From a virus, in the UHGV virus genome UHGV-1370141: DNA of 64,000 bases; one strand, 5' to 3'. The position numbers and the translations under genes are program-made. Shown in pieces: positions 26,136 to 45,231 of this stretch. Numbering within the stretch: the first letter of the stretch is position 1; each line of letters opens with the position of its first letter. A model generated the notes under the pieces. That model did no database searches and was not told the origin of the DNA. It worked only from the letters and a program-made list of their open reading frames with translations.

Positions 26136-26591
26136 TCAGTTCAAACACATTGTCAGATACTGATCGTAGGCGTCTAATAAAGCTTGCCGGTCAGAGCGAT
26201 AATTCCACAACAACGAATTCAGTTTACGTGATAAATCCCGACTGATTTCTTGTGGCGTTAACGCTTTGTCGTCTAATAACATCTTTTCTGGAACGGAATG
26301 TAATTTAGGAATTTCAAATCGTTCGCAGATAGGTGCTAACATCGGTGGATTCCACCCGCGTTTGACTGCTTGTTGATTTAAGTTTCGTGTGTAAAGATAA
26401 ACGTAATAAGCGTATGTATTCACATCCGCAACATATTCCCGCATCGCGTCTTTATCAATTTTCCAATTTAGCATGATAGGCGGCGCTGGCGGAGGTTGTA
26501 ACGCAGTATAGGATGGCCGTTTACCGGGTTCTCCATAGCCATTACTCACCAAACCCACGCACAAAATCATGATGAATAACAGCGATTTCAT
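26136..26591 (-). CDS. Secreted (signal-peptide) hypothetical protein (151 aa)
   Basis: N-terminus MKSLLFIMILCVGLVSNGYG is signal-peptide-like. Confidence 0.45.
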   Translation of the reverse strand: MKSLLFIMILCVGLVSNGYGEPGKRPSYTALQPPPAPPIMLNWKIDKDAMREYVADVNTYAYYVYLYTRNLNQQAVKRGWNPPMLAPICERFEIPKLHSVPEKMLLDDKALTPQEISRDLSRKLNSLLWNYRSDRQALLDAYDQYLTMCLN

Positions 26592-31308: not shown

Positions 31309-31818
31309 TTAGAAGAACGGTTGGTTTGGAATCACAGCAAATTCCAGAACGAAGATGTGTTCAGGGGCACCTGCCTGACGCCAGATTTTGTGCGTAGTCG
31401 CCAGTTTCTCCAGAATCGTCAGGAAGCTACGCTGGCAGTAGGTGTTCTCACCCAACAGCAAATTCTGTAACTCTACAGTGGCTTCCATATACGCTTCTTT
31501 AAAGACCTGATTCGGATTGTATTTACCGGTATGATGCCACAACAGAACTTTCCCTTGCTCTGTGTCTCTCACGGCCGGACGTAACCCGCAAATCCACAAC
31601 AAGGCAAGGTTGACGTTCCAGTCAAACTCTAAGCCTTCTTCTTCGTCATCACCGAAAGCCGTTTTAAGGGCATCGTAAAACTCATGTCGCGTTGCAAAGT
31701 CTTCGTCGGACTTTATCTGGTCTTCGTTACTGCTACGAACGATACTGTACACGTCCTGGGCAGTAATTTGGGTAGCCTTAGTGATACCTTTATACCAATC
31801 GGTTACAACGATGCTCAA
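31309..31818 (-). CDS. Hypothetical protein (169 aa)
   Basis: ORF with 4-nt overlap with the upstream lysin-candidate gene. Confidence 0.4.
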   Translation of the reverse strand: MSIVVTDWYKGITKATQITAQDVYSIVRSSNEDQIKSDEDFATRHEFYDALKTAFGDDEEEGLEFDWNVNLALLWICGLRPAVRDTEQGKVLLWHHTGKYNPNQVFKEAYMEATVELQNLLLGENTYCQRSFLTILEKLATTHKIWRQAGAPEHIFVLEFAVIPNQPFF

Positions 31819-32501
31819 AGGGTGACTCCTTGTTTAAATGGAAAACTGGTGTTTATCGTATCCCAAATTCGGTTAACTTCTGCCAACTGAATCTGGCGTT
31901 CTGGTTTCTTCGCAAACGCAAGCTGACGAGATGCTACAGGCTTGTTGATTTTCGCACTGTAGAACGTTGCATCTTTCATAAAGCTCGCCATTTCTCGTTG
32001 TGCTGCCCGAGACTTGCTTTTAATCCTGGCGTGTGCACCGCTTTCACCCCAGTGATAAGCCAATGCAATTTCTGCAATAGTGGGCTTGCGTTTGAGTCGT
32101 TTAGTCAACCCCTTTTCTAAATGTTTAACGTAGACGGAAGCCAATAGCACCGCATTACGAGGATTGTACAAATCCGCGTTACGACTAAGTCCGATTTCGT
32201 TGCCGTAGAGTTTTAGTAAATTACGCTTTGTGCTCGGTAGCATCTGAACCAGACTGTGCGCTTTAGACGTTCGATTATACGCCTTCGGATTAAACCGCGA
32301 TTCCCGATAGATTAGCGTGGTCATCAACTTAGGATCGACGCCCTGCTTTCGGGAGATTTCCACAATCAACGGTTTTACCCGTTCGAAACGGTCTTGAATC
32401 ATTTCGAATTCACGATGGTGTTTGGCACTGGGTGCGGATTTGGATGCGTATGCGTTAAACGCGAAAAGTGTTACCAGTAAAAGAAAGAAAATACGAAACA
32501 T
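31815..32501 (-). CDS. Secreted lytic transglycosylase (SLT family); endolysin candidate
   Basis: Start set at internal Met (MFRIFFLLLVTLFAFNAYA, signal-peptide-like) with GGAGA SD; SLT motif RESRFNPKAYNRTSKAHSLVQML and AYHWG. Confidence 0.6.
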   Translation of the reverse strand: MFRIFFLLLVTLFAFNAYASKSAPSAKHHREFEMIQDRFERVKPLIVEISRKQGVDPKLMTTLIYRESRFNPKAYNRTSKAHSLVQMLPSTKRNLLKLYGNEIGLSRNADLYNPRNAVLLASVYVKHLEKGLTKRLKRKPTIAEIALAYHWGESGAHARIKSKSRAAQREMASFMKDATFYSAKINKPVASRQLAFAKKPERQIQLAEVNRIWDTINTSFPFKQGVTL

Positions 32502-32601
32502 ACTAGTTCTCCAGTTGGATTTATACATTTCCGTGTTCCGTAGAACGAAATCACGGCGCGGACAGCTGGAACTCCTTTGTTGTGTGCCCTAATGATAATA
32601 T

Positions 32602-34605: not shown

Positions 34606-34806
34606 TCATGACTTCCCTCCAACACACCGCCACTCACATTCGCGTTGGTGCCAAATTGAACCCCAGGTGAGCCTAATCGCGTACGCTAAGACCACCCATA
34701 AAATCGCCGTTATACAAAATAGCACGTACAGAATGGCAACCAGCACCATGACGCTAAACCCTAAAACGCTTAGTAACTGACGCCACCAATCAGTTTGCGT
34801 AGACAA
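34606..34806 (-). CDS. Small membrane protein (66 aa)
   Basis: Hydrophobic core LLSVLGFSVMVLVAILYVLFCITAILWVVLAYAI; TTG start whose codon overlaps the SbcC-like gene 3' end. Confidence 0.35.
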   Translation of the reverse strand: MSTQTDWWRQLLSVLGFSVMVLVAILYVLFCITAILWVVLAYAIRLTWGSIWHQRECEWRCVGGKS

Positions 34807-38518: not shown

Positions 38519-38596
38519 TTTAATTCTCCTTTAGGTAAAACAAGTCGTAAAAAGGACCCCGGACGAATCGGAACGTACCGGGGCCAAGACTACACA

Positions 38597-38986
38597 TCAG
38601 TAATCTAATTCGATAGCACCTAACATCTCACCGCGTTCTTCGATGACGATAAGATGGCGGTCACGTGATTTGCTTTTCGCAAGCGTTAGTACAACTGTGG
38701 GGTCACACGTTTTGGTCGTTACAGGAAGCACCTCTTTTGCTACAGAGTCGAGTACGAAATAATAACCCGCAGGGCAGGTTGTCCCACCATCTGCTTTTAC
38801 GAGTATATAGCGTCCATCTGCGCCAACTTCTTGGCACTCGCCTGCATCGCCTTCGCAGACTTCAAAACCCGGTGGGTTGTAGTGATAGTCTGTGTTCGTT
38901 GCCGGGGTAAGTAATAAATCGTCGATGTGTGTAGAAGCCATAACTCCGATTGAGAAAAACGCCAACAAAGCGCAGATAAGACGCAT
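38597..38986 (-). CDS. Small secreted protein 1 of 5 (129 aa)
   Basis: N-terminal signal-peptide-like MRLICALLAFFSIGVMAS; several Cys in mature part. Confidence 0.45.
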   Translation of the reverse strand: MRLICALLAFFSIGVMASTHIDDLLLTPATNTDYHYNPPGFEVCEGDAGECQEVGADGRYILVKADGGTTCPAGYYFVLDSVAKEVLPVTTKTCDPTVVLTLAKSKSRDRHLIVIEERGEMLGAIELDY

Positions 38987-38996
38987 GGTTTACTCC

Positions 38997-39407
38997 TTAG
39001 ATTTTAAGTTTGTCCTGTGCTACAACGATTGGTGCTCCAGAGGTGTCGATAACACCTACAGTCGGCACACCATTTTTGATTTTGAAGAACGGTTTGTTTT
39101 CGCCTGAACACAATTGGTTGTCTTTGTATTCGATTTTCTGTGCTTTCCAAGTTTCCAGGTTGAGTACCGACATAGGGCTGTCGTAGCACCAGGCACCACC
39201 TTGCTCAACAACGAAAACATATCTGTTACCTTTGTATTCAAACAAATTCTTTGTCTGGCAATACAGACCGTCAATTTCTGTGCAGTAGAATTCATCGGTA
39301 CTGTTGACGTATTTGATACCCGCCGGTAGCTTTATTGTTTTTGCTGCTACGTTAAGAGAGAACAGAACAGTTACAGCAACGAGTAAAGTTTTGATAAACG
39401 TTTTCAT
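38997..39407 (-). CDS. Small secreted protein 2 of 5 (136 aa)
   Basis: Signal-peptide-like MKTFIKTLLVAVTVLFSLNVAA. Confidence 0.45.
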   Translation of the reverse strand: MKTFIKTLLVAVTVLFSLNVAAKTIKLPAGIKYVNSTDEFYCTEIDGLYCQTKNLFEYKGNRYVFVVEQGGAWCYDSPMSVLNLETWKAQKIEYKDNQLCSGENKPFFKIKNGVPTVGVIDTSGAPIVVAQDKLKI

Positions 39408-39422
39408 GACAGACTCCTTAAA

Positions 39423-39905
39423 TTAATTAACCGTAGCTACGTATTTCTTAACCAGATAGGCGAATTCATTAACGCCGATATCGCCAAACCAAACCAGGTA
39501 ACCTGGGTCGACGTTGTAATAGTAACCTACCACGACATGGGTCTGCGGGTTATAAAGCGTCGTGATGTATTCCCAACCACAAGCATTGCTTTTGCAAGCG
39601 GTAGATTCAAGCCAGATTTTGCCGTTGATTTGCACGGGAATAACATCGCCGCCAGGACCATCCATCACGCCATCTTTACCGAATAACCCGTCTAGTCCGA
39701 CAGGTTTCAACGCTTTATCGATTGCGGCTTTATAAGTCGCATCGTCGGTATAGAGTGTGTTGATATCAGGACATGCACTGGGTTGTTCAGCCCAGGCTTC
39801 CGGGTTACAACTAAGTGCTTGTTTTACACTAGCCGCTTCTGCGTTAAAGGTAAAGCCCGTGAACAGAACCGCCACGAAGAACATCAGGGTATGTAAACGT
39901 TTCAT
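39423..39905 (-). CDS. Small secreted protein 3 of 5 (160 aa)
   Basis: Signal-peptide-like MKRLHTLMFFVAVLFTGFTFNAEA. Confidence 0.45.
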   Translation of the reverse strand: MKRLHTLMFFVAVLFTGFTFNAEAASVKQALSCNPEAWAEQPSACPDINTLYTDDATYKAAIDKALKPVGLDGLFGKDGVMDGPGGDVIPVQINGKIWLESTACKSNACGWEYITTLYNPQTHVVVGYYYNVDPGYLVWFGDIGVNEFAYLVKKYVATVN

Positions 39906-39923
39906 TGTAAATTCTCCATTAAA

Positions 39924-40316
39924 TTATTCAGCGCTACGATTTAAAGTAATACGACCGATCAGTTCTGCATTATGGAAGAAGTCCACAGCAGTATAGTTAC
40001 CGACCTCTAACGGATGAATACTGACTGACATGACTTTTGGTTGTTCGCAGGCGATATCCGTCAGACGTTGGTAGACTTGTGCACGAGTGTCAGCAATGAG
40101 TAATCCGGTACACGATTCACCACGCACTAAACGATAAACTTGCAGTTTACCGAAACTGCGCATTAACGTAGGCGACTCATCCGGGTTGATAATGGGTGAA
40201 TCAGGAGCCGGTTCGTAATGGCGGACGTCCGAATCGCCGAAAGCATAAGTGGCCGTAATACCGACTGCACAGAAAATAATGATGGTATAAAGTATAGTTC
40301 TGATATTCATTTTCAC
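39924..40316 (-). CDS. Small secreted protein 4 of 5 (130 aa)
   Basis: Signal-peptide-like MKMNIRTILYTIIIFCAVGITATYA. Confidence 0.45.
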   Translation of the reverse strand: MKMNIRTILYTIIIFCAVGITATYAFGDSDVRHYEPAPDSPIINPDESPTLMRSFGKLQVYRLVRGESCTGLLIADTRAQVYQRLTDIACEQPKVMSVSIHPLEVGNYTAVDFFHNAELIGRITLNRSAE

Positions 40317-40338
40317 GCACTCTAAAAAAGATTAATAC

Positions 40339-40800
40339 TTATTTGTTAGGACGGGTGTGTCCACAGTTCTGGAAGAAAGTTTCAGACAGACGTTCGCCTT
40401 CTACGGTAAAGTTAGCGGCTTCGTTTCCGTTGATATTCACACTGAAAGTTTTGGCATTGCCGATAGCATTAACGAAAGCCACCCAAGCGAGTTCTGCTTT
40501 GTCACTACCATCCACCGTAGGGATGTTGTAAGTTTTGCCATTTACGACAATATCCAGCGTGTTGTCTTCAGCGTTAGTTGCACCTACAGGTTCCCCGTAA
40601 TACCAAACCATGCGACCGTAAAATTTGCGATTCGCGGTTTCAGTGTCACAGTTGATAGACAGTCCGTTTCCGGTGGTGTCTTCGATTTCGTAAACAGCTT
40701 GACCTGGGTTCTGTAGTTGTTCCCAACTATTGATTGCAGCGTGTGCAGTATTGAATCCGATTGCGAAAAGGCCGATTAAAAAGGAAGTGAAGATTTTCAT
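40339..40800 (-). CDS. Small secreted protein 5 of 5 (153 aa)
   Basis: Signal-peptide-like MKIFTSFLIGLFAIGFNTAHA. Confidence 0.45.
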   Translation of the reverse strand: MKIFTSFLIGLFAIGFNTAHAAINSWEQLQNPGQAVYEIEDTTGNGLSINCDTETANRKFYGRMVWYYGEPVGATNAEDNTLDIVVNGKTYNIPTVDGSDKAELAWVAFVNAIGNAKTFSVNINGNEAANFTVEGERLSETFFQNCGHTRPNK

Positions 40801-40892
40801 TGTTTTGCTCCTCGTGGGGTTAACAAGTAAAAGAGTTAATCTTAACTCTCACCTAAGTAATATATATCTGAGATTATTTTTAATGTTAGATA

Positions 40893-40926
40893 ACAAAAAA
40901 TAAAAGGTGGGGTTTACACCCCACCG
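40893..40926 (-). terminator. Rho-independent terminator (GGTGGGGT-ttac-ACCCCACC; U-run on - strand)
   Basis: Perfect 8 bp stem with plus-strand A-run on 5' side, right after the stop of 40930..41508. Confidence 0.5.
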
Positions 40927-44846: not shown

Positions 44847-45231
44847 GGGGTTTATTCTCCTAAAAAGGGATAAGGAAGTCACTACGTTCCTCTGGGAAGA
44901 GTATGTCGGTATACTACGTATACCTCCGCTATTTATATCCGTATACATAATGCCCCCTACCCCCTACCGGTATCCCGAGTAGCAGAATAAAGGGACAATC
45001 TGTAAATTTTAAGTAATACTATGATTACCGTGGTAGATAAGGTGAATAGTGACGGAAGAGTCTCACTACCTCTTCGATACCGTCTTTCTGTTCAGCGAAC
45101 ATGGTAGCCTCCACTATTGTTAGTATCCGTTTCGAAAAGAAACGTGCCCATAGGGGTTGAAGTGCGAGTTCAACCCCTATTCACTTAAGTAAAATATATC
45201 TGAATCTATTTCCGATCTAAGGAACGACCTA

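What the first reader, a model, noticed from the sequence alone, without database searches (positions are those of the whole stretch)
38597..40800. Run of five consecutive small signal-peptide proteins
Five adjacent - strand genes (129-160 aa) each start with a classical signal-peptide-like N-terminus (basic residues, 15-20 hydrophobic residues, A-x-A-like end). None has an obvious lipobox. Phages rarely need five periplasmic proteins in a row. Candidates are superinfection exclusion, inhibitors of host periplasmic enzymes (lysozyme or protease inhibitor-like), or receptor-masking factors. Mature parts look different from one another, so this is not simple duplication.
Basis: partly seen in the sequence, partly recalled or inferred. 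Interest (0 to 1): 0.55.

Follow-up and report, generated by a model that had tools for sequence, protein, structure and literature searches.

The report
Early periplasmic-protein operon of jumbo phage
A giant phage of enterobacteria carries a self-contained, probably early-expressed operon of five small proteins exported to the periplasm; one is a diverged relative of the bacterial lysozyme inhibitor Ivy, and part of the operon also sits in about a third of complete E. coli genomes, where what is probably the same gene has been reported to limit phage T7, so the likeliest job is blocking the cell-wall-cutting enzymes of other incoming phages.

Summary
Five adjacent minus-strand genes (38597-40800) all begin with an SPase-I signal peptide. 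None has a lipobox, a Tat motif or a further membrane segment, and each mature part has 2 or 4 cysteines. A run this long arises by chance with P about 1e-4 to 1e-3.

The genes form one transcription unit, with terminator hairpins on both sides. Upstream lies a promoter-like block (TCAGATATATATTAC.T..GTGAG) that is invariant in seven related jumbo phages and matches the phiKZ-type early promoter.

- **P3** is a diverged Ivy-family protein whose loop reads CKSNAC where Ivy has CKPHDC.
- **P5** belongs to the YfjT family of the E. coli CP4-57 cryptic prophage.
- **P1 and P2** are paralogues of a four-cysteine all-beta family that resembles two propeller blades. P4 may be a distant relative.

The SPN3US orthologues (gp180-183) are absent from the published virion proteome. 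A P3-P2 segment with phage-like GC content sits in CP4-type islands of 1877 of 5426 complete E. coli genomes, and one island type also keeps a decayed P4 remnant. A preprint reports that knocking down an E. coli O121 Ivy-like gene with the same CKANTC loop raises T7 plating.

Best reading: an accessory cassette for envelope protection or superinfection exclusion, analogous to T4 Spackle. The function is inferred, not shown.

The parts
40906..40925 (-). Intrinsic terminator of the upstream operon (GGTGGGGTGTAAACCCCACC followed by a T-run); it isolates the cassette from upstream read-through.
   Evidence: Terminator scan. RNA fold -17.0 kcal/mol, z -3.9.
40841..40871 (-). Promoter-like element TCAGATATATATTACTTAGGTGAGAGTTAAG, of the phiKZ-type early (virion RNA polymerase) promoter form.
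   Evidence: It contains TATATTAC-N4-GTG, which matches the phiKZ and 201phi2-1 early promoter consensus listed in PMC7058600 Table 2. The core is invariant in 7 phages of at least four genera, directly upstream of the homologous cassette. It was the only stretch of the query window:38000-41600 with a megablast match, about 89% identical to SPN3US-like phages. No timing experiment exists.
40339..40800 (-). P5, 153 aa: signal peptide MKIFTSFLIGLFAIGFNTAHA|A and a YfjT-family periplasmic protein with 2 conserved Cys.
   Evidence: Precomputed PF27224:YfjT on homologues. hhalign against E. coli K-12 YfjT: probability 97.1%, E 7e-11. phrog_3429. No GenBank phage homologue by tblastn.
39924..40316 (-). 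P4, 130 aa (128 aa from the ATG at 40310): signal peptide ending TYA|F, 2 conserved Cys; orthologue of SPN3US gp180.
   Evidence: phrog_9424 E 3e-42 and a weak phrog_5248 hit. Orthologues in SPFM4, phiEaH2, Huxley, pEa29 and SPAsTU. A frameshifted remnant lies in E. coli islands.
39423..39905 (-). P3, 160 aa: signal peptide ending AEA|A; a diverged Ivy-family protein with the disulfide loop CKSNAC; 4 Cys.
38997..39407 (-). P2, 136 aa: signal peptide ending VAA|K; four-Cys all-beta domain; orthologue of SPN3US gp182 and paralogue of P1.
38597..38986 (-). P1, 129 aa: signal peptide ending VMA|S; four-Cys domain; orthologue of SPN3US gp183.
   Evidence: phrog_5248 E 5e-31. Four invariant Cys shared with the P2 and gp181 groups.
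38549..38585 (-). Intrinsic terminator closing the cassette (GGCCCCGG...CCGGGGTCC followed by TTTTT).
   Evidence: Terminator scan. RNA fold -19.7 kcal/mol, z -2.65.

Best explanation
The five genes form one accessory operon of a jumbo phage related to SPN3US and phiEaH2. The operon is probably transcribed early. Its products are exported by the Sec pathway, cleaved by signal peptidase I and folded with disulfide bonds in the periplasm of the infected cell. There they most likely protect the envelope against cell-wall-degrading and entry machinery, mainly that of secondary (superinfecting) phages. This would parallel phage T4, whose early periplasmic protein Spackle blocks the tail lysozyme gp5.

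P3 is the component with a nameable mechanism. [quoted passage not shown] P3's loop (CKSNAC) has lost the canonical histidine, which points to a target other than C-type lysozyme. Candidates are the SLT-type transglycosylase domains that phiKZ-like phages and T7 use to cross the wall. P5 (YfjT family) and the P1/P2(/P4) paralogues are binding modules whose targets are unknown. The P1/P2 type resembles two propeller blades.

Shown: gene structure, signal peptides, paralogy, Ivy and YfjT homology, the conserved promoter motif, absence from the SPN3US virion, and presence in E. coli islands. Inferred: export, early timing, enzyme inhibition and exclusion of other phages.
For: - **Export signals and cysteines:** signal peptides and an even number of conserved Cys in all five proteins.
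- **Discrete unit:** the cassette lies between two stable terminators.
- **Promoter:** the block upstream is invariant across seven phages and matches the phiKZ/201phi2-1 early consensus.
- **P3 is Ivy family:** four independent routes agree.
- **Accessory, mosaic behaviour:** the cassette has 0, 3, 4, 5 or 6 genes in relatives. One slot is occupied by gp181, by the Ivy-like gene or by an unrelated domain behind the same signal peptide. Against relative L022, P4 is 95% identical but P3 only 67%.
- **Domestication in E. coli:** the P3-P2 pair, with the same 15-nt spacing, sits in CP4-44-type islands of 1877 of 5426 complete E. coli genomes. It has phage-like GC (0.41 and 0.46 against 0.515 for the island). 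One island type also keeps a frameshifted P4 remnant. The genes are under purifying selection there too. A benefit to the cell without the phage is what an exclusion gene would give.
- **Experimental hint:** bioRxiv 10.1101/2024.04.20.590424 reports that CRISPRi knock-down of E. coli O121 Hypo_04657, an Ivy-like protein with loop CKANTC, raises T7 plating efficiency. The E. coli homologues of P3 (71-73% identical) carry exactly CKANTC.
- **Not virion proteins:** SPN3US gp180-183 are absent from the 83-protein virion list.
- **Precedent:** T4 Spackle is an early, signal-peptide-bearing, disulfide-containing periplasmic inhibitor of a tail lysozyme (PMC7677548).
Against: - No experiment on this phage or on SPN3US gp180-183 was found.
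- P3 scores below the curated cut-offs of the Ivy models (14.7 against 21 bits; 19.4 against 180 bits).
- P3 lacks the loop histidine that, from my own knowledge of Abergel et al. 2007, contacts the lysozyme catalytic residues.
- The identity of Hypo_04657 with the P3 homologue rests on the loop motif and the description, not on a sequence.
- CRISPRi is polar and could act through the downstream P2 homologue.
- The P1/P2 fold matches no known inhibitor.
- Early timing rests on a promoter motif only.
- Most SPN3US-like phages lack P3 and P5, so the conserved core (P1, P2, P4) may do something different from P3.
Confidence: 0.5

Rival explanations
1. Lysis-timing control. The periplasmic proteins, P3 above all, restrain the phage's own exported SLT transglycosylase or host lytic transglycosylases. 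The wall then stays intact during the long jumbo-phage cycle and resists lysis from without until the proper lysis signal.
For: The window encodes a 237-aa protein with a signal peptide and an SLT domain (31815-32528; Pfam SLT 4e-14). This is probably an exported endolysin that needs to be held in check. Ivy is reported to control bacterial lytic transglycosylases (Clarke et al. 2010, as cited in PMC3660660). An inhibitor made early would be in place before a late endolysin.
Against: SPN3US, phiEaH2 and other relatives have the same type of endolysin region but no P3, so P3 is not needed for their lysis control. Retention of P3-P2 in a third of complete E. coli genomes without the phage endolysin is hard to explain by phage lysis timing. 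The knock-down phenotype in E. coli O121 concerns an unrelated phage, T7.
Confidence: 0.2
2. Envelope take-over or receptor masking. The proteins bind host periplasmic or outer-membrane components, such as the Tol-Pal system, porins, LPS or peptidoglycan sugars, to remodel the envelope or hide receptors. The two-blade propeller-like P1/P2/P4 proteins would act as lectin-like or TolB-like binders, possibly assembling into a full propeller.
Against: The structural matches are weak and generic (Foldseek best E 0.16). No lipobox or membrane anchor is present, unlike the known receptor-masking lipoproteins. No partner has been identified.
Confidence: 0.12
3. Cargo of the early infection vesicle. 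In phiKZ-like phages the injected DNA first sits in a membrane vesicle. If that vesicle derives from the inner membrane, Sec-targeted early proteins could be delivered into its lumen and act on the vesicle rather than in the bulk periplasm.
For: The promoter is of the early type. The phage belongs to the group related to phiKZ for which early infection vesicles are described (bioRxiv 10.1101/2023.12.31.573766 and 10.1101/2024.03.24.586471, seen in the list only).
Against: Nothing links these families to the vesicle. Some relatives lack the cassette altogether (Phobos). The genes persist and are under purifying selection in E. coli, which has no vesicle.
Confidence: 0.05
4. The N-termini are uncleaved membrane anchors, or the proteins are virion components. 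These are the reader's own refutation scenarios.
For: P4's hydrophobic core is long, and its cleavage motif TYA|F is the least canonical of the five.
Against: All five have small residues at -3 and -1 after a short hydrophobic core. The mature parts are hydrophilic and carry conserved paired cysteines. The homologous Ivy and YfjT families are periplasmic or secreted. SPN3US gp180-183 are not among the 83 virion proteins detected by mass spectrometry.
Confidence: 0.04

Closest known systems
Ivy (inhibitor of vertebrate lysozyme; Pfam PF08816, NCBIfam NF007443; PDB 1GPQ, 1XS0, 1UUZ)
   Same: P3 is a small periplasmic protein with a signal peptide. It has a six-residue disulfide-closed loop, C-K-x-x-x-C followed by G, at the aligned position between two beta-strands. 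Predicted secondary structure runs helices, beta-sheet, C-terminal helix. Ivy is the top structural match. A profile search reaches proteins annotated as Ivy family.
   Different: P3 scores below the curated family cut-offs. The loop is CKSNAC, not CKPHDC, so the histidine is replaced by asparagine. P3 has an extra N-terminal cysteine pair. It is encoded by a virulent jumbo phage and by E. coli islands, not by a core chromosomal gene. No Ivy-family gene was found in 50,697 GenBank phage records.
T4 Spackle (gp61.3), superinfection exclusion by inhibition of the tail lysozyme gp5
   Same: Working model only: an early phage gene, a cleaved signal peptide, a small disulfide-containing periplasmic protein, and a proteinaceous inhibitor of a wall-cutting enzyme (PMC7677548).
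   Different: There is no sequence or fold relationship. Spackle is an alpha-helical bundle acting allosterically, whereas Ivy-type inhibitors insert a loop. Here there are five proteins rather than one, and the target is unknown.
E. coli O121 Hypo_04657 (PHAGEPACK preprint, bioRxiv 10.1101/2024.04.20.590424)
   Same: It is an Ivy-like domain with loop CKANTC, identical to the loop of the E. coli homologues of P3 (P0007, P0009, O157:H7 WP_000775497.1). Its knock-down increases T7 plating.
   Different: The preprint describes an extra helical domain. The effect was measured in a bacterium against T7, not for the phage-borne copy.
YfjT (E. coli K-12 b2637, CP4-57 cryptic prophage; Pfam PF27224)
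   Same: P5 aligns over 122 columns with 25% identity, hhalign probability 97.1%. It shares the signal peptide, the length (153 against 155 aa) and both cysteines.
   Different: YfjT itself is uncharacterised, so the match gives a family but no function. P5 sits in a phage operon, whereas yfjT follows the lipoprotein gene yfjS.
SPN3US gp180-gp183 and the equivalent genes of phiEaH2, Machina/Huxley, pEa_SNUABM_29 and SPAsTU (PHROGs 9424, 8968, 5248)
   Same: They occupy the same position, three genes from the SbcC-like gene. They have the same strand, the same promoter block, and orthologues of P4, P2 and P1.
   Different: Those cassettes have three or four genes, with a third P2-type paralogue (gp181) where the window has the Ivy-like P3, and no YfjT-like gene. 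All are annotated only as hypothetical proteins.

Membership tests
Ivy family (P3) | Score above the curated cut-off of the family models (Pfam PF08816 21 bits; NCBIfam NF007443 180 bits). | tested here: not met
   14.7 bits, E 0.035, and 19.4 bits, E 7e-4. P3 is therefore a diverged relative, not an equivalog.
Ivy family (P3) | Homology to bona fide members, shown through intermediate sequences. | tested here: met
   A profile of P3 and close homologues finds 58 proteins at E 1e-3 or better. Of the 32 sequences aligned and scanned (29 of those hits plus P3 and two close E. coli homologues), 27 hit Pfam Ivy, best E 7.6e-12. Hits such as P0116, P0125 and P0148 are named 'Ivy family c-type lysozyme inhibitor' by NCBI.
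Ivy family (P3) | Disulfide-closed six-residue loop at the conserved position between two beta-strands. | tested here: met
   CKSNAC aligns with CKPHDC of 1GPQ and 1XS0. C104, K105, C109 and G110 are invariant in the P3 family.
Ivy family (P3) | Histidine in the loop (CKPHDC) that contacts the lysozyme catalytic residues. | tested here: not met
   P3 has Asn. The homologues aligned carry CKSNAC, CKANAC, CKAHAC or CKANTC. The role of the histidine is from my own knowledge of Abergel et al. 2007, which could not be read here.
Ivy family (P3) | Ivy fold. | tested here: inconclusive
Ivy family (P3) | Inhibition of C-type lysozyme or lytic transglycosylase. | not testable with these tools
   This needs a biochemical assay.
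YfjT family, PF27224 (P5) | Significant profile match over most of the length to E. coli YfjT. | tested here: met
   hhalign probability 97.1%, E 7e-11, 122 columns. Homologues at 75-99% identity carry the precomputed PF27224 hit. The model is not in the local Pfam copy.
T4 Spackle-type superinfection exclusion | Signal peptide and periplasmic location. | tested here: met
   This holds by sequence prediction only. Export was not shown experimentally.
T4 Spackle-type superinfection exclusion | Sequence or fold homology to Spackle. | tested here: not met
   No such hit was found in Pfam, PHROGs, NCBIfam or PDB searches for P3 and P5. P1, P2 and P4 were checked against the three family libraries only. 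P2 is all-beta and P3 is alpha/beta, whereas Spackle is a helical bundle. The cassette is therefore an analogue at most.
T4 Spackle-type superinfection exclusion | Early expression. | tested here: inconclusive
   There is a conserved phiKZ-type early promoter motif. No transcript data are available.
T4 Spackle-type superinfection exclusion | Exclusion of a second phage and inhibition of its tail enzyme. | not testable with these tools
   The only indirect support is the T7 phenotype of the probable E. coli homologue.
Lipoprotein exclusion factors (T5 Llp, Cor type) | Lipobox [LVI][ASTVI][GAS]C at the end of the signal peptide. | tested here: not met
   None of the five has one.
Known anti-phage defence systems (PADLOC) | Match to a PADLOC model. 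| tested here: not met
   No hit at E 1 or better for any of the five.
P1/P2/gp181 four-cysteine family (PHROGs 5248, 8968) | Shared F-x-C...C...C...C pattern and profile-profile similarity. | tested here: met
   F40, C50, C74 and C100 are invariant and the first Cys is offset by two alignment columns between the P1 and P2 groups. hhalign gives 93%, 92% and 97.6% between the three groups. For P4 the result is inconclusive (E 0.004-0.013, probability 8% or less).

The most novel reading that the evidence does not exclude
The cassette is a modular periplasmic anti-phage shield. Its conserved core, the two-blade propeller-like paralogues P1, P2 and P4, would assemble into a hetero-oligomeric propeller that works together with exchangeable inhibitor modules such as the Ivy-like P3 and the YfjT-like P5. 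A fragment of this shield (P3-P2, plus a decayed P4 remnant in one island type) would have been captured from a jumbo phage by CP4-type islands. It would now serve about a third of complete E. coli genomes as an unrecognised class of envelope-level phage defence aimed at the wall-piercing enzymes of incoming phages.
Probability: 0.15. Interest if true: 0.8.

Novelty: new variant of a known kind. Interest (0 to 1): 0.58.

Why it matters
Early genes of phiKZ- and SPN3US-like jumbo phages are almost all 'hypothetical', and nothing is known about how these phages guard the envelope of the cell they occupy. This cassette offers a concrete, testable candidate: the first Ivy-family gene seen in a phage within the collections searched, sitting in a conserved early operon.

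It also gives a likely origin and a likely function to a pair of 'hypothetical' genes found in about 35% of complete E. coli genomes, O157:H7 included. One of those genes appears to be the host factor that limits T7 in a recent genome-wide screen.

If P3 inhibits phage transglycosylases, it would be a second, independently evolved solution to the problem T4 solves with Spackle. It would also be a defence layer acting before DNA entry that current defence catalogues do not list.

Tried and rejected
- **Direct family searches** of the five proteins in Pfam, NCBIfam, PADLOC and PDB gave nothing above threshold. The exceptions were the weak Ivy signals for P3 and PHROGs of unknown function.
- **tblastn of P3 and P5** against 50,697 GenBank phages found nothing. 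A canonical Ivy query also found nothing.
- **The P3 structure model** was poor (pLDDT 52), so the fold evidence for P3 is weak.
- **Homology of P4 with P1/P2** could not be established.
- **P3 and P5** show no relation to each other or to the P1/P2 family.
- **Rfam** found no RNA family in the region, and sigma-70-type promoters are not enriched there.
- **Literature:** no paper on SPN3US mentions gp180-183. The SPN3US infection-proteome paper (PMC6384053) and the Ivy family paper (PMC1847508) are not held, so timing of expression and the role of the loop histidine could not be checked in the sources.
- **Artefacts discarded:** apparent extra paralogues in the SPFM phage records (P0096-P0109) are scrambled sequences caused by a record artefact.
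- all AlphaFold, fold-search and large protein-search quotas were used, so P1, P4 and P5 have no structure model.
Full report
**What is there.** The window comes from a jumbo phage distantly related to Salmonella phage SPN3US and Erwinia phage phiEaH2. DNA identity is only about 70%, in the SbcC-like gene, and no GenBank phage covers the region. Near-identical and related contigs of 107-226 kb exist in metagenome and read-archive assemblies.

Each has a short basic N-terminus, an uncharged hydrophobic core and a small-x-small cleavage motif. None has a lipobox, a twin-arginine motif or a further hydrophobic segment. The mature parts contain 4, 4, 4, 2 and 2 cysteines, and these are invariant in their families. 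SignalP was not available, so the calls come from my own heuristic plus inspection. With the same heuristic only about two other genes of 68 in the window are convincing, and a run of five arises by chance with P about 1.5e-4 to 1.5e-3. All five are under purifying selection (dN/dS 0.03-0.20 against a relative).

**Transcription unit.** A strong terminator hairpin precedes the cassette (40906-40925, -17 kcal/mol) and another follows it (38549-38585, -19.7 kcal/mol). Gene spacings are 10-22 nt, and P1, P2, P3 and P5 have Shine-Dalgarno sequences.

Between the upstream terminator and P5 lies TCAGATATATATTACTTAGGTGAGAGTT. This was the only stretch of the query region with a megablast match, about 89% identical to SPN3US-like phages. 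When the intergenic regions upstream of the homologous cassettes of seven phages are aligned, the core TCAGATA.ATATTAC.T..GTGAG is invariant.

It contains TATATTAC-N4-GTG, the consensus reported for early promoters of phiKZ and 201phi2-1 (PMC7058600 Table 2; general properties in PMC11512511). A second, slightly diverged copy heads the next operon upstream, at about 45176-45205. Early transcription by the virion RNA polymerase is therefore likely, but it is inferred from the motif only.

**The proteins.**

*P3.* P3 has no homologue in GenBank phages, but three libraries give weak hits to Ivy, the periplasmic inhibitor of C-type lysozyme:
- Pfam, E 0.035, and 0.008 for a homologue.
- NCBIfam, E 7e-4.
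- PDB profile search, E 0.5, aligning CKANAC-G with CKPHDC-G of 1GPQ and 1XS0.

The decisive test was transitive. A profile of P3 and its close homologues, searched against 1.84 billion representatives, gave 58 hits. I aligned and scanned 32 sequences: 29 of those hits plus P3 and two close E. coli homologues. Of these, 27 match Pfam Ivy (best E 7.6e-12), and several are named 'Ivy family c-type lysozyme inhibitor' by NCBI. Their loops read C-[EKQ]-x-H-[ND]-C. P3 is thus a diverged member of the Ivy superfamily whose loop, CKSNAC, has lost the histidine.

*P5.* P5 belongs to the YfjT family. Its homologues carry the precomputed hit PF27224:YfjT, and hhalign against E. coli K-12 YfjT gives 97.1%, E 7e-11. 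YfjT is an uncharacterised exported protein of the CP4-57 cryptic prophage.

**Comparative anatomy.** The cassette always sits three genes from the SbcC-like gene, which is SPN3US gp186 (PMC5105663).

| Phage or contig | Cassette content |
|---|---|
| SPN3US, SPFM4, pEa_SNUABM_29, SPAsTU, phiEaH2 | Four signal-peptide genes: gp180 = P4, gp181 = third P2-type paralogue, gp182 = P2, gp183 = P1 |
| Huxley | Three genes |
| Phobos | None |
| The window and contigs L020, L022, L023 | Five genes |
| L015, L017 | Six genes, with a second YfjT-like gene |
| L016 | A 150-aa protein in the P3 slot that shares only the signal peptide with P3 |

Divergence between the window and L022 is very uneven: P4 95%, P5 90%, P1 80%, P2 76% and P3 67%. 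This is the behaviour of an accessory, recombining locus, not of core machinery.

**Link to E. coli.** P3 homologues (61-73% identical) and P2 homologues (69-79%) occur in E. coli chromosomes. By comparison, P2 is only about 32% identical to SPN3US gp182.

The two genes are adjacent and in the phage order, with the same 15-nt spacing. They lie in CP4-44-type islands between dynamin-like, RdcB and patatin genes on one side and the DUF932, antirestriction, yeeS, yeeT and cbeA-cbtA block on the other. The pair is present at 80% coverage or more in 1877 of 5426 complete E. coli genomes, and 2301 genomes have some match.

One island type also keeps a frameshifted remnant of P4 just upstream of the P3 homologue. 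The GC content of the two genes (0.41 and 0.46) matches the phage (0.455), not the island (0.515). P2 and P4 belong to families that are old in these phages. The simplest reading is therefore that a P4-P3-P2 segment moved from a jumbo phage into the islands. The origin of P3 itself, bacterial or phage, is open. The genes remain under purifying selection in E. coli, so they do something useful for a cell that has no phage.

**Experimental hints from the literature.**
1. SPN3US gp180-183 are not among the 83 proteins found in virions by mass spectrometry (Table S4 of PMC5105663).
2. A preprint (bioRxiv 10.1101/2024.04.20.590424) found that CRISPRi knock-down of E. coli O121 'Hypo_04657' increases T7 plating. 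It describes the gene as an Ivy-like protein whose loop is CKANTC instead of CKPHDC, surrounded by hypothetical genes. The E. coli homologues of P3, including the O157:H7 copy, carry exactly CKANTC. I therefore think it is the same gene family, but I could not compare sequences. CRISPRi could also have silenced the downstream P2 homologue.
3. The preprint attributes the effect to the T7 lysozyme. From my own knowledge, that enzyme is a cytoplasmic amidase, whereas T7 gp16 carries a transglycosylase motif used during entry, which would be a more natural periplasmic target.
4. T4 Spackle is the precedent: an early, exported, disulfide-bonded inhibitor of the tail lysozyme that causes superinfection exclusion (PMC7677548).
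5. Ivy has also been reported to control lytic transglycosylases (Clarke et al. 2010, via PMC3660660).

**Mechanism proposed.** The operon would be transcribed early and its products exported through Sec, cleaved and oxidised in the periplasm. P3 would then insert its loop into the cleft of wall-cutting enzymes of incoming phages, or perhaps of resident ones. The other four proteins would bind targets still unknown.

I give the exclusion or envelope-protection reading a probability of about 0.5. The main rival, at 0.2, is control of the phage's own exported SLT enzyme. That enzyme is encoded 6 kb away (31815-32528). The rival is weakened because relatives with the same type of enzyme region lack P3, and because E. 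coli keeps P3 without the enzyme.

**Novelty and score.** Periplasmic exclusion factors and Ivy-type inhibitors are both known. Four things are new here:
- an Ivy-family gene in a phage;
- a conserved multi-gene early cassette in SPN3US-like jumbo phages;
- a new four-cysteine, two-blade family;
- the tie to very common E. coli island genes.

I rate the finding a new variant of a known kind, with interest 0.58. The function remains inferred.

Noticed in passing
window 31815-32528 (-): A 237-aa protein with a signal-peptide-like N-terminus (…FAFNAYA|SKS) and an SLT lytic transglycosylase domain (Pfam 4e-14; phrog 'transglycosylase'). It is probably an exported endolysin and a possible target of the Ivy-like P3.
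   Followed up: partly
window 26136-26591 (-): Another small protein (151 aa, phrog_8165, function unknown) with a signal-peptide-like N-terminus, outside the cassette.
   Followed up: no
window ~45176-45205 (-): A second copy of the early-promoter-like motif (TTCAGATATATTTTACTTAAGTGA), in the divergent intergenic region that heads the operon 44948 to 40930. The whole minus-strand block down to the SbcC-like gene may be an early region.
   Followed up: partly
L001 7113-7217 (SPFM4); also SPAsTU (L010) and pEa_SNUABM_29 (L009): In these phages the conserved promoter block is followed by a GC-rich hairpin plus a T-run before the first cassette gene. In the window the hairpin lies upstream of the promoter. 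This could be an attenuator or a 5' stabiliser.
   Followed up: no
proteins P0096-P0109 (SPFM phage records): These 'proteins' consist of 20-residue blocks of gp181 and gp183 in reversed order. This is evidently an artefact of some SPFM GenBank records, not real paralogues.
   Followed up: partly
L016 7427-7879 (223-kb contig in a Salmonella assembly): At the P3 slot sits a 150-aa protein that shares only the signal peptide with P3. The mature domain has been swapped behind a conserved export signal.
   Followed up: no
L018 6906-7589 (E. coli O157:H7, WP_000775497.1) and L003 7098-7640: The annotated 227-aa O157:H7 protein is an in-frame fusion of a fragment of a 180-aa signal-peptide protein with the P3 homologue, which keeps its own signal peptide. 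The real start is probably the internal MKRLH. The 180-aa protein is yet another exported island protein of unknown function.
   Followed up: partly
window cassette compared with L015, L022 and L011: Synonymous divergence of P2 (dS 0.65) is far lower than that of its neighbours (about 1.1-2.9). It equals the phage-to-E. coli value, which suggests recent exchange of P2 alone.
   Followed up: partly
L003-L006, L011-L013, L018 (E. coli islands): The P3 and P2 homologues lie directly downstream of dynamin-like GTPase, RdcB (YjcZ) and patatin-like phospholipase genes. This possible defence-type cluster was not analysed.
   Followed up: no
window 34606-34806 (-): A 66-aa protein with two hydrophobic segments, overlapping the end of the SbcC-like gene. 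It is the counterpart of SPN3US gp187, which was noted in PMC5105663 as a possible membrane anchor of SbcCD.
   Followed up: no
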